Part shown: positions 36,032-45,654 of the stretch, piece after piece
How positions within the stretch are numbered: the first letter of the stretch is position 1
Layout: each line of letters starts with the position of its first letter
From: Mobula birostris
Lineage: Eukaryota
Reading direction: 5' to 3'
Length of the DNA stretch: 64,000 nucleotides
Assembly (NCBI RefSeq): GCF_030028105.1
Contig: NC_092380.1
Coordinates: 26,003,144-26,067,143, forward strand
Position numbers and translations under genes: made by a program
Notes under the pieces: generated by a model
Databases searched by the model: none
The model's input: the letters and a program-made list of their open reading frames with translations, nothing else
Told to the model about the DNA's origin: nothing

Positions 36032-36249
36032 CTGCAATAGAGCGTGCCCAGAACAGCAACCAAAGTCAGTGAGATTCAACACGATAACCCCCTCCCAAAC
36101 CCTCCCCTTATCAAAAAATCAACTATCCACGCAGAAACAAAACCTCTTGGGAAAGAGTTCTGTTTCGTGCCTCCCTCCTCCTTCAATACTTGGAAGTAGA
36201 CTGTTAAATTAAATGCAAAATCCAGGGCTGGCTCCTCATTTTCTCAATA

Positions 36250-39200
36250 CATCACTGGATTCAAGTAAACCGGTTTTAGTGTTTTCACTTATGACAATTA
36301 GCTTTAGACACTCAATTTTGACATATGCAGTTTCATTAGAAAAGGGAAGAGCCAACCCTAGCTAGTATACAACATTGAACCATTGAGATCTCATCCTGGA
36401 AAGGGAAAGAACATCTATTAGAACAACTGTTAATTGAATTCATCACTCAAACTCAAGCACTCTTACTCACTCAAACAACATTGTCTAGATAAGGAGGGAA
36501 TTTAAGCCCCAAATATAAAAACCAGAAAAAAAATCACTGGTTGTCTTGCAACAGAAAATGGAATCCAACCAATTCTGTAAGCACTGAGAACAGGACAGAT
36601 TTTGAATGGCTGAAAATTCTCACACAGTACTTAACTGTAACTGTATTCAACCACAAGAGTGTCAGGACATCCCAGCCAAAATAATTCACAGTGCACTATT
36701 AATTCAAGAGAGAACCAAGAGTGCCCAAGACCCCAAGCTGATGACTTTCAACCAGGCCCAAATTAAAAAGGAACAGGAGTTTAGTTTCATAAACACAGTT
36801 AAATGCACTCATGGCCTTAAAACAGGGACTAACCACTATGGCAAGCAAATCAATGAGATGGGAAAGGAAGGAATCAAATCTGAAAAATATTTCCAGTTTC
36901 TAGCCCCCCACCCCAAAGAGTTGACAATTTCACTTTGATGTGGTGTCTTCAAGCAATCTTTATATACTACCTAAGTTAAATCCCGTAAAAGTTATTTCCC
37001 CAATTCTAGTCCTTAGAATCATTGTAATTGATGCAATCTTGTTATACTAGACAAGGAAAAATTTCACAATGTAACATCTTTGAATGAGCTTGGTAAACCT
37101 TCATCTTGATCTAACCAGACCCTTACCCTTCAGGGCTACATTACTATTGCATTGCTGAATTTGATTTAAAGACTAAAATCTTCTGAAAGAGGATAAACTA
37201 CTCCTTCAGAATTAGTGCATTTTCAGGAGGATAAATTGCAATTTGTACTTATTTTAAAGTCTAGCTTAATTTCATTCATTGCATTATTCATATCTAAAGA
37301 AATTATGGAATCATGCTCTCAGTTACACTAAAACTGGGCCATTTGACCAGGGTTGCAAGAACCTGTGTTAATTTATTTTGGGTTCCATCCGCTATACACC
37401 ACCAGGGAGAAAGAAAAATGGATAAAAACAGGAATTGGAGGGACAAAGAGGGGAAAAAATGAATTGATTAAGCACTACACAGCACCACTAACAAAAGAAA
37501 AGAGATTTTACCTGTAAGTTTACTTACAAAAACTGCACTTTAGCCCCCTGCACTCATGAAAATCGGGATGCGCTATCTCGCCAACAGATGATACAATGTT
37601 CAGTGTTTCGACTTCCACTGTTTGTAACTTTCTGCTGCTGAGGATTTACCCTTTACTTACTGCATCTTACCTGCTTTCAGCAGCGATTGGGTTTTTAAAG
37701 AATTTTCTACATCGGGCGTTTGATTACTTTAACAAGCATATTCAAAGGATAATATTTTTTTTAAAAAAAATCGGTATCAGCGAAAAATGTCTGACTTGTG
37801 TTTTTTTTCCTCCTTCAAATTTACTTTGCTGTCACTGCAATTCGAATGTTCAAAGAATACCAACGTCTACAGAATTGATCCACAACATAAATTAAGTGGG
37901 TTTTTGTTTCTCTTACCATTGGACGTTTGTACTAGTACATTAAAATGACTGATTCTGCCTTTTTCCTTCAACACTCATTAAATGGAATCGTTTTCATTAT
38001 TTGAAACAAACAACTGCCACTTGGATTAAAAAACAGCTCAAGGTATCAGGTGGTTCATTTTAAAAAGGCCAAGTGTAATGATCCTTTATGCAGCAACATT
38101 TAACCACATTCTCAAAATATAACCAGACCAATTAGAAAGATGCCAAATACCATTTTGCCACCACCACCTGTTGGATTTATAAAATTTTAGATTACAGCAT
38201 ATTTACATGACACTTGAACAGGATAAACTATCCAGAAACTGTAATTGCGTGTGGTACTTTGGTCCATGCTGCATACAGCTTGTAACAGATGAAATCTGAC
38301 ACTGGGTGAGTAAGTAACAACCCCAATTGTTGAATTCCAATTTAGTTTCCTCTCATCAGGACACAAGGTTACACAATATTCTGCAGACAACCAAGCTCAT
38401 TACAGCACCGTCATTGTAACAAAATAGAGAAACCGAGGAGACTCATGTTAACATATGGCACGCTTGCTGTTTATTCAAAGACTCTTCCAAGAACCACGTT
38501 TCCATTTACCTGAAGGGCAAAAATCACAGCTGCTGGCGTGTATCCATGATATCTGAAAATGTGGAAGGAAATCTCTCACTTCTGGGAGATAAAATCTTAA
38601 TTCTACAGGATGTTGTGCTCCTAGTAACTACCAAAACTTAGGAGTACCAGAAGTCTCCACAACTGAAGATGACTAGAATTATCTAATGTAAACCAAAAAT
38701 ATTCAGACTGCAATACAGTCACAAGTCTGGCAGTTGATTATCCAAGGCATGTTGTATTTGCCAGCAATAAGGGAAAATTGTTCCACTGGTTCAAAAGCTT
38801 GAATAAAATAAACATATTAACAAGTGGACAAATCTGAGATTTCTGGAATTTCTATCCAAATCAGAGGGGGGAAACCATTAACACAAACAGGTTTTAGGGT
38901 ACCAATCTTTTTGTATCAAAATATTTATAAAGGTATACAGTGGTGATGATCAGAGCTTGCTCAACAGCCAAAATGCAGCAGGAACATTTACTTGCTCAGC
39001 TGTTTTCTTCTCCAAATATCAAGACAATTAATTTAAAGATAGGCACAGACAAATATCAATTTCTGGAAATTCAATTCAGGGAACTTGAAGGATATAGTTT
39101 AACATATGCAGACAAAACATCTGGATCCTAAACCAGGTGTAAAGTTAATGCATCATTTTCACAGTACATCTCAGCTTACCATCGACATGGAAAGTAGTCC

Positions 39201-43800: not shown

Positions 43801-45080
43801 GCATTTCTCCCCACTGAGAACAGTAACAGGAGGACATGATTCCAGCTGCTCAACAAAAAATAAACTCCCATGGTTAAGCAGGAATTGTGAACCAAGTCCT
43901 CAGTATGATAAATCTTTAACATGTATTGTATTACTACATGACTTCCAATATACCAGAAGAAACCATATACTTACCACACCATCACTAAAGTAGCAGTGCT
44001 CAACAGCCCGCTACAATCAGCAAAACCACCCATGAGTAAATACAGCTGAGTCTTGATAAACATACTAGTGCCAAACACTACTTAGATTAACTTAATCTCA
44101 CTGTACTATATTAAGTATAACTACAAAGCTGAACTGCAGCATTTATAGGCACATGAGAGTGTCTATCAGGATTCAGCTGTACTTAACCATTACAAAAATC
44201 TGCTCCAAACATCTGAAGGATATCTTTCATTTTCTAAGCAGTGGTGAGGCTTTGCACCATGCCTTGGTTTGTGGAATGCAGTGGCAGGCTGATCTGTAAC
44301 CTTTTTTTGAAGAAATGTTTTTCTATTATCTCAGTACAGAAAACCTGAAGGTGCTATCTCAAATACATGGGAGTCCCATGATACTTATATTTAGGGTTTA
44401 GAAAAAACTTATGGTTATATTTTTCTTCTCAAAAGTTACTTTATGGACATCAAGCAAAAAGGCCCATTACCCAAAGTGAGGTTAATACCCTATGGTCCTC
44501 TCAGGTAGAGAAATCGATCACTTTAATCACTGCAATGCTGTGCTCATAATATAATGCTTTTCAAAGTTCAATTAAACATCAGACAACTCTTGATGACAGC
44601 ATAGTGATGTCTGCAAGCACCGCTTTCAATATACTGGTTTAACTGGACTTATTCTTGGCTTCTGTTTAATTTACCCAGCAGAGATTAATTTGAAAATTAA
44701 CATATATAAACTAACTGAAGGATTCTGTCTACACTAACAAGGCAAAGCTGATTTCAACTTGTTGATAGCTCTATTCATGTTTGGTACACTTCCCTAGATC
44801 AAAATAAACCAGAGTCTCATTACTTAAACCCACTTGGTAATAACTTAGCCTCTCAGCTGGGCCCCAGCATGATCTAAATGAGGGAAATGAGCCTCGCTTC
44901 CTACCAACCCAAGAGGTGCCTACCGTGAGTGATTCTGCCATACACTAGCAGGGTTCAATTGTACTTACATTGACACTTAAAACTGGTTTGAATCCTAGGG
45001 TAAAGCAGAAGACTACATTAATAAATCAGAAAACCTGGTGCCATCTTTAAAAGGGTTCTTGCATATCTAAACATATTTAA
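40870..45080 (-). repeat. Giant degenerate inverted repeat B in SNRNP70 intron 7 (loop ~43150)
   Basis: More than 20 collinear blocks with sums drifting ~85930-86350, e.g. 43052-43071/43237-43256 (17/20), 42969-42978/43369-43378 (10/10), 41950-41960/44209-44219 (10/11). Confidence 0.82.
42766..42863 (-). other. SNRNP70: SNRNP70 alternative poison exon 7a (PTC-containing)
   Basis: tctgttgtcactgcag|CCACC...CTGGCTTGCAGCTGA...TGG|gtaaga; in-frame TGA at 42771-42769; matches the recalled human truncated-isoform tail TTQLACS* at motif level. Confidence 0.75.
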
Positions 45081-45654
45081 GTGGAGTAAACTTTCTGCAC
45101 ATTAAACATTTCCTTAAGTCACGGGAGCAGAAGCCAATTGCCCATAAAGTATGCTCTGCTGTTTGAACATGGTTGAAACCCCCCCCCCCACCCCAAACCT
45201 ATTTTCTTGCCTTCCCCCCAGAATCTTTTGATGCCCTTACTAATCAACAACCTCTGCTTTAACTACACCCAATGACTTGGACTCCACTGCCAACTGTCCA
45301 CCACTTATCATGGACTTTCTTTGTAAGAGCCACAGTGCATACAGGTTGATGTACCAAAAGAAACTTTCATGAAGTTTTGTAGTATATACATCTGGGACCA
45401 CCATAATGTTTCCAGTAACCACTCGACTCAAGCATAATTTTTCTCTAACCTAATCCCACCCTGGAGCAGATCCCAGCATACATCAAGTTTAAACCAGCTA
45501 GGGAATGCAATGGGATGCAAAAAAAGGCTCAAGTCTGTACTCAGCACACAGCTTAATGTTGCACAACCAGAATGTGTACTACATATGGCTGCAGCAGAAC
45601 AGACGCCAAGCTATCTAAAACCCACCCCTCCCCATACAAAAACAAATTACTTAC

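What the first reader, a model, noticed from the sequence alone, without database searches (positions are those of the whole stretch)
36032..45654. SNRNP70 intron 7 is a transposon-free ~9-kb module built from two back-to-back giant RNA hairpins
Seen: elsewhere the window is saturated with CR1/Rex1/SINE debris, but I find none from ~36030 to ~45100. That interval is tiled almost exactly by inverted repeat A (~36250-40800) and inverted repeat B (~40870-45080), with about 2-kb arms each and under 100 nt between them. Established: this is the intron whose alternative 3' splice site / exon 7a mediates U1-70K/U1C feedback via NMD in human and zebrafish. Inference: the folded intron is a selected regulatory scaffold that shortens the effective exon 7-8 distance, gates poison/decoy splice sites, or promotes intron detention. 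Insertions would break the pairing register, which would explain the TE exclusion. I know of no description of such a structure, but could not search.
Basis: partly seen in the sequence, partly recalled or inferred. Interest (0 to 1): 0.93.

Follow-up and report, generated by a model that had tools for sequence, protein, structure and literature searches.

The report
Transposon-free U1-70K poison-exon intron
This 9.6-kb intron of the splicing gene SNRNP70 carries the known self-limiting poison exon and really is free of transposons, but it is not two giant hairpins; at most one weak fold-back and some short local hairpins are present.

Summary
The stretch is intron 7 of SNRNP70 (minus strand, 45654-36032). 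The transposon-free claim holds: 36032-45100 matches only itself in the 4.0-Gb genome and has 0% repeat cover against 57% in the rest of the window. The known poison/decoy exon 7a, with acceptor and donors A/B/C, lies at 42863-42761. The two giant hairpins are not confirmed. Self-BLAST finds no inverted arm. B is at background. A is only an excess of short stems on one anti-diagonal (4 of 10 settings significant against shuffles, matched by 5 of 11 real-sequence controls), best seen as a ~1.7-kb core of 14 short predicted helices. Unreported features: sense-strand U1-complementary sites along the whole intron (9 vs 2.6 at the best of three thresholds), stable local hairpins upstream of 7a, and two dispersed genomic copies that start at the exon-7 donor. 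Best reading: a long, insertion-intolerant version of the known U1C/U1-70K switch. This scan noted donor arrays in U1-70K introns of two other genomes. Covariation, editing and junction use remain untested.

The parts
45655..45736 (-). SNRNP70 exon 7 ([27 protein letters not shown]), donor at 45654
   Evidence: translation and splice context; 76% match to the same exon in fish contig L004
36032..45654 (-). SNRNP70 intron 7, 9,623 nt
35930..36031 (-). SNRNP70 exon 8; exon 7-8 join is open
35429..45110 (.). transposon-free stretch (nearly all of intron 7, exon 8 and 0.5 kb of intron 8)
   Evidence: controls 59, 60
42761..42897 (-). conserved poison/decoy exon 7a: acceptor ending 42864, exon start 42863, donors A (42790), B (42778), C (42765); 73/85/98-nt exons all lead to a premature stop; in-frame stop at 42771 if the downstream intron is kept
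   Evidence: read by eye against Fig. S2 of PMC3798272; 71% identity over 161 columns to fish contig L004
42950..44300 (-). run of stable local stem-loops just upstream of the 7a acceptor, including a 30-bp hairpin at 44032-44190 and a nested domain at 42960-43389; single-copy
   Evidence: controls; signal similar on both strands
40782..41031 (-). locally stable fold (z -4.7 in a 250-nt window); single-copy
36222..36361 (-). 16-bp helix (36361-36346 with 36237-36222, 3 G-U pairs) about 190 nt before the exon 8 acceptor
37511..44968 (-). dispersed donor-like (U1-complementary) sites at 44968, 43974, 42646, 39532, 38509, 37670, 37660, 37527, 37511
   Evidence: weaker by weight matrix
45112..45300 (-). 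old high-copy repeat remnant, in the sense of the pre-mRNA (read as a CR1/L2-type LINE 3' tail from recall, not from a call)

Best explanation
This is a long orthologue of the known U1C/U1-70K homeostatic intron. Shown: the 7a acceptor and donors A/B/C are conserved in order and spacing, and every 7a product carries a premature stop. From the literature: intact U1 snRNP binds the clustered donors, activates the 7a acceptor, the rest of the intron mostly stays unspliced, and the RNA is degraded or detained, so U1-70K output tracks U1C supply. Inferred: in this animal the regulatory information is spread over about 9 kb as extra sense-strand U1 docking sites and modest local structure, and insertions (which bring splice sites and polyadenylation signals into an intron tuned to be spliced inefficiently) are purged by selection. 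This leaves a transposon-free stretch without any need for giant hairpins.
For: 7a anatomy matches the human/mouse/zebrafish alignment and a fish contig. Mechanism tested in human, mouse and zebrafish (PMC3798272); blocking the decoy donors cut intron retention from ~35% to ~9% (PMC7373989). Transposon-free stretch. Sites with >=7 contiguous matches to the donor consensus: 9 on the sense strand vs 2.6 in shuffles (0 of 300), 1 antisense, 1.4 per 9.6 kb in neighbouring DNA. Transposon-free regions of 5-10 kb are common in vertebrate regulatory genes and are not explained by primary-sequence conservation alone (PMC2241635).
Against: The donor excess depends on the threshold: 15 of 300 and 10 of 300 shuffles reach it at >=6 and >=8 matches, and 13 of 200, 67 of 200 and 200 of 200 at three weight-matrix cut-offs. 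Nine sites cannot by themselves tile 9 kb. No junction, retention or conservation data were obtained for this species, so use of 7a and of the extra sites is inferred. The cause of transposon exclusion is not shown.
Confidence: 0.6

Rival explanations
1. Selected RNA architecture contributes: the 1.7-kb core of A (and perhaps its outer arms) folds back, bringing the donor-like site at 39532 next to the donor cluster at 37670-37660 and looping out 38509, while local hairpins at 42950-44300 gate the 7a acceptor.
For: Anti-diagonal stem excess, 4 of 10 settings at p<=0.04, present in outer (24 vs 12.9, 0 of 300) and inner (14 vs 6.9, 6 of 300) segments of a band chosen after the fact. The 37600-39600 fold beats 23 of 23 local shuffles in energy and in collinear long-range pairs, 229 vs mean 100, max 201; top of 16 intron windows; helix probabilities 0.50-0.99. 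Local folds at z -5.8 and -4.7 among 75 windows; none at <=-4 among 193 control windows.
Against: 5 of 11 real-sequence controls match the stem statistic; not significant at k=7 or 9 or in energy-based chaining; another intron window scores 200. G-U versus A-C mismatches in the core are 21:11 against 1.53 expected from composition, so no clear RNA-strand preference. Local fold signals are as strong antisense (9 windows) as sense (8). The fish exon 7-7a intron is not unusually stable, z -0.65. Windows for searches were placed after seeing the signal.
Confidence: 0.22
2. The transposon-free stretch reflects constraint unrelated to the splicing switch (DNA-level regulatory elements, an unrecognised embedded RNA, or low insertion and high deletion locally); the stem and donor excesses are compositional by-products.
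For: Real genomic controls also show 1.0-2.0-fold excess of helices over shuffles, against 1.7 (sense) and 3.0 (antisense) here. The clean stretch extends 0.5 kb beyond exon 8. Thousands of >=5-kb transposon-free regions exist per vertebrate genome (PMC2241635).
Against: The stretch coincides almost exactly with the one regulated intron of the gene, while other introns of the same gene are repeat-rich. No Rfam family at curated thresholds and one chance-level hit at E 2.5. Donor-like sites are one-stranded.
Confidence: 0.14
3. One reading: two back-to-back hairpins with 2-kb arms tile the intron and exclude insertions by pairing register.
For: The centre it gave for A (38525) falls in the one band with a stem excess. 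A chain of helices can be drawn about 43130 with z 1.7-2.4.
Against: No inverted BLAST hit; B at background; only 16% of A in exact stems; whole-region folds are branched; best single duplexes are 16-32 nt and not on either claimed axis.
Confidence: 0.04

Closest known systems
Vertebrate SNRNP70 (U1-70K) intron 7 / exon 7a U1C-dependent switch (PMC3798272; decoy function in PMC7373989, PMC6097662)
   Same: Same intron, same acceptor, same three donors A/B/C in order and spacing, all products non-productive.
   Different: Intron is 9.6 kb against 3.2 kb in human; 7a lies 2.8 kb after the exon 7 donor against 0.64 kb in human and about 0.95 kb in fish contig L004; exons A/B are 73/85 nt (human 60/72) and are poisonous by frameshift, the first in-frame stop lying only just before donor C; extra donor-like sites are spread along the intron.
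Transposon-free regions of vertebrate genomes (PMC2241635)
   Same: A >5-kb (here 9.7-kb) stretch without recognisable transposons in a repeat-rich genome, in a regulatory gene.
   Different: Described regions mostly overlap transcription-factor genes and often extend upstream of the start site; this one is confined to one internal regulated intron. The passages seen have no mention of splicing genes. Annotation here is by self-similarity, not RepeatMasker.
Pairs of conserved complementary regions controlling poison exons, e.g. BRD2 exon 3b and BRD3 exon 5b (PMC10789245, abstract)
   Same: Short intronic helices near a poison exon in a self-regulating gene; the 16-32-bp helices here are of that size class.
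   Different: Those are conserved and were tested by mutagenesis; none of the helices here has conservation or functional support, and the A core does not flank 7a.

Membership tests
SNRNP70 exon 7a switch | Located in the intron between exons 7 and 8 of U1-70K | tested here: met
SNRNP70 exon 7a switch | Conserved alternative acceptor followed by donors A, B, C | tested here: met
   by eye against Fig. S2
SNRNP70 exon 7a switch | Use of 7a yields a premature stop | tested here: met
   3 of 3 donor choices and the retained form hit a stop
SNRNP70 exon 7a switch | Acceptor is used in vivo, depends on U1C, with downstream retention and NMD | not tested
   no read-level data obtained; needs RNA-seq and knockdown
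Transposon-free region | >=5 kb without recognisable transposon in a repeat-rich genome | tested here: met
   controls 59, 60; by similarity search, which skips very common words and misses very old repeats
Transposon-free region | Maintained at the orthologous locus in other lineages | not tested
   no full orthologous intron obtained; L004 covers only 1.7 kb of a fish intron
Giant intronic inverted-repeat hairpin | Kilobase arms alignable to each other's reverse complement above chance | tested here: not met
   B null, best A alignment about 93 nt
Functional long-range RNA structure (PCCR type) | Complementarity above background | tested here: inconclusive
   A core:
Functional long-range RNA structure (PCCR type) | Conservation and covariation of paired positions | not tested
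   no orthologous sequence for these positions obtained
Functional long-range RNA structure (PCCR type) | Disruption and compensatory rescue change splicing | not testable with these tools
   bench experiment

The most novel reading that the evidence does not exclude
In this lineage the U1-70K feedback intron has grown into a 9-kb insertion-intolerant RNA device in which a degenerate 1.7-4.5-kb fold-back and a run of local hairpins bring scattered U1 docking sites together and gate the poison acceptor, so that RNA architecture, not sequence conservation, explains a transposon-free region; the excised intron is stable enough to have been retro-copied twice.
Probability: 0.2. Interest if true: 0.68.

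Novelty: new member of a known kind. Interest (0 to 1): 0.3.

Why it matters
As it stands it extends a known autoregulatory switch to another vertebrate lineage and gives a sharply bounded transposon-free region that coincides with one regulated intron. That makes it a tractable case for the open question of why such regions exclude insertions. If the A core and local hairpins proved conserved, it would be an RNA-level cause of a transposon-free region; the present evidence does not show that.

Tried and rejected
Arms as copies of an ordinary transposon: rejected, the stretch is single-copy. Known structured RNA in the intron: none at Rfam thresholds, one hit at E 2.5. U1-70K binding-loop mimic (motif recalled, 4 patterns): 0 hits. 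The donor cluster at 37670-37511 as exon 7a: rejected once Fig. S2 placed 7a at 42863. A second cassette exon ending at 37670 or 39532: only 2 acceptor candidates passed a strict pyrimidine filter (43813, 38851), and the filter missed the real 7a and exon 8 acceptors, so it is uninformative. Strand asymmetry (G-U vs A-C) as proof of RNA selection: inconclusive for the A core; the other four alignments are left out of the count, three because they were picked on sense-strand energy and one because it is the separate 44032-44190 hairpin (7:6). Sequencing runs: no RNA holder listed; 20 of 24 listed rows hold part of the stretch, two other organisms at shares 0.54-0.64 and two at 0.18-0.20; none was laid on the sequence, so none is used as evidence. 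Relatives in metagenomes: 1 hit, a 2,089-nt fish-like contig that shares only exon 7 and 7a with the window. Look-alike stretches in this scan's other genomes: 0. PMC11162794 looked like a precedent but its main text has no SNRNP70 mention and names U1-70K only as a knockdown target. The repeat background rests on 20 stretches of one contig within 1 Mb of the window, not on a genome-wide sample.
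Full report
What the stretch is. U1-70K peptide motifs (recalled, used only as probes) fall in order on the minus strand from 54564 to about 31600. Exon 7 is 45736-45655, exon 8 is 36031-35930, and their join is open, so 45654-36032 is intron 7 (9,623 nt, about 37% G+C). The window lies on contig C13 of a 4.01-Gb genome.

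Exon 7a. Read by eye against Fig. S2 of PMC3798272, the acceptor ends at 42864 and the exon starts at 42863, followed by donors A (42790), B (42778) and C (42765). The exons are 73, 85 and 98 nt; A and B shift the frame to a stop in exon 8, while C and the retained form meet an in-frame stop at 42771. A fish-like metagenome contig, L004, the 1 hit, matches the window only in exon 7 (76%) and in 42897-42760 (71% over 161 columns). In human, mouse and zebrafish this acceptor depends on U1C and on U1 binding to the donors, and the rest of the intron stays largely unspliced (PMC3798272: parts 1-2 of 8 of the text, passages and supplement 2). Blocking the donors lowered retention from about 35% to 9% (PMC7373989, passages), though the 60-nt cassette was weak in a foreign reporter (PMC6097662, passages).

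The transposon-free claim is right. 36032-45100 has one candidate and one match, itself, at E<=1 in the genome; two sub-stretches searched alone at E<=10 gave the same. With 20 neighbouring 10-kb stretches, two more loci and the window as library, cover is 0% there and 57% in the rest of the window; the 9,762-nt gap is the longest of 322, whose mean without it is 333 nt. Two other gaps of that map gave 42 and 60 non-self genome matches, so the search sees repeats when present. Limits: the search skips very common words, the background comes from one contig, and very old repeats would be missed.

The giant hairpins are not there as described. Self-BLASTN gives 2 non-self hits with a query in 35500-46000, both direct and both to repeats elsewhere. 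The longest of 32 ungapped inverted pairs is 31 nt. The best long-range duplexes by energy are 16-32 nt and lie off both claimed axes. For B, 10, 23, 38 and 12 of 60 shuffles match the arm alignment, 81, 189 and 294 of 300 match the stem count in three bands, and the fold of 40800-45660 is branched.

A has a weak signal. 8-mer pairs centred at 38532-38631 number 40 against 15. Corrected for all centres, 4 of 10 settings are significant (p 0.007-0.04) and 6 are not (0.09-0.68). Exact stems of 8 nt or more on that band cover 736 of 4,551 nt. The excess appears in both outer (24 vs 12.9) and inner (14 vs 6.9) segments, but the band was chosen after the fact, and 5 of 11 controls of real unique sequence reach the same maximum z of 3.5 (controls had 25 shuffles each and are noisy). 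Energy-based chaining with G-U pairs gives A z 1.4-2.8 and a band near B z 1.7-2.4, against a median shuffle maximum of 2.7-3.2. The core is the best case: folding 37600-39600 gives -503 kcal/mol against -481 +/- 9 (0 of 23 shuffles) with 229 collinear long-range pairs against a mean of 100 and a maximum of 201; it is top of 16 intron windows (221; next 200) and above 6 control folds; 14 helices, 175 bp, have probabilities 0.50-0.99 within that window. The same core appears in the 4.8-kb fold, where the outer arms do not pair as a rod. G-U versus A-C mismatches in the core are 21:11, close to the 1.53 expected from composition. I read this as borderline: perhaps a real, degenerate fold-back of about 1.7 kb, perhaps the best of many chance bands.

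(a) Donor-like sites on the sense strand: with at least 7 contiguous matches to the donor consensus (recalled) there are 9 against 2.6 in shuffles (0 of 300), 1 antisense, 1.4 per 9.6 kb in neighbouring DNA and 3.8 per 9.6 kb in the rest of the gene, true donors included. At 6 and 8 matches, 15 and 10 of 300 shuffles reach the count; a weight matrix gave 13, 67 and 200 of 200 at three cut-offs. The sites are scattered from 44968 to 37511 with a cluster at 37670-37511. Two earlier notes of this scan report donor arrays in U1-70K introns of other animals; they prompted the test and are not support. (b) Local structure: 8 of 75 overlapping 250-nt windows have z<=-2 on the sense strand, 6 of them in 42782-44281, just upstream of the 7a acceptor; two reach -5.8 and -4.7. 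Among 193 of 319 control windows, 9 reach -2 and none -4. Regions placed after seeing the signal give z -4.8 and -4.2; a fixed 450-nt tiling gives 3 of 21 at <=-2. The antisense strand scores as well (9 of 75), and the fish exon 7-7a intron is unremarkable (z -0.65). Strong mid-range helices are 7 against 2.0 (0 of 40), but real controls also exceed their shuffles 1.0-2.0-fold, against 1.7 and 3.0 here. (c) A 16-bp helix with 3 G-U pairs about 190 nt before exon 8 gave the top sense-strand band (0 of 40 shuffles); its local fold has z -2.8.

How it most likely works. Shown: intact 7a with three donors, all products non-productive, in an insertion-free intron. From the cited work: U1 snRNP containing U1C binds the donors, turns on the 7a acceptor and leaves the rest of the intron unspliced, lowering U1-70K when intact U1 is plentiful. 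Inferred: the extra donors act as further U1 docking sites that favour detention, and insertions are selected against because they bring splice and polyadenylation signals into an intron whose inefficiency is tuned. If the A core is real, it would place 39532 about 150 nt from 37670 and loop out 38509; that is geometry only. No reads or full orthologues were obtained, so junction use, retention, editing and covariation are open.

Comparison and novelty. It meets the three sequence-testable features of the exon 7a switch and the length criterion for a transposon-free region, a class with thousands of members of 5 kb or more per genome whose cause is not explained by sequence conservation alone (PMC2241635, passages). 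It fails the test for a kilobase inverted repeat. The nearest structural precedent is short conserved helices around poison exons (PMC10789245, abstract). Five searches for a described structure, editing or inverted repeat in SNRNP70 intron 7, or for this intron in sharks (listings only), showed none, in a library that lacks most subscription papers; PMC11162794 (passages) is not a precedent. Verdict: a new member of a known switch with a well-supported transposon-free intron; the headline structure is refuted for B and doubtful for A. Interest 0.3.

Noticed in passing
window 45654-45117; L002:2683-3233 (G000:C9:156123182-156123732); L003:about 2758-3180 (G000:C16:about 8017757-8018179): The first 0.45-0.54 kb of intron 7 has two dispersed copies in the genome (90% and about 78% identical). 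Both begin at the exon 7 donor (intron +2 and about +1), carry no clear exon 7 sequence, and end in or at the repeat remnant at 45112-45300. This fits reverse transcription primed at an embedded LINE-type tail on an excised intron 7 RNA, twice independently (inference; LINE label recalled). A rare mobile element that inserted exactly at the donor is not excluded.
   Followed up: partly
L002:2242-2780 and 3236-3774: The C9 copy sits inside a recent 539-bp, 99.6% identical inverted duplication that includes a high-copy repeat and the first 98 nt of the intron copy.
   Followed up: partly
window 37511-37527: Two donor-like sites 16 nt apart; the first is followed by its own complement and could form a 5-bp hairpin hiding it (seen in the sequence printed).
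   Followed up: no
window 39650-39678 with 40064-40095: 27-bp helix with 4 G-U pairs, the strongest mid-range duplex of the intron (1 of 100 shuffles as good within 600 nt); it crosses the outer part of the claimed A axis and is incompatible with a single rod.
   Followed up: partly
window 22000-30000: Long stretch of strong negative GC skew (-0.26 to -0.42) with high repeat cover, probably long retroelement copies.
   Followed up: no
L012, L013 (G000:C13:25700001-25710000, 25800001-25810000): Two neighbouring 10-kb stretches are 100% repeat-covered and 54-55% G+C, probably a tandem array.
   Followed up: no
L010:5358-10000: Second-longest stretch without repeat hits (at least 4,643 nt), about 0.5 Mb from the window.
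   Followed up: no
window 30863-31133; G000:C3:95203000-95203268: A 270-nt piece near the 3' end of the gene has a 94% copy on C3, possibly a processed fragment.
   Followed up: no
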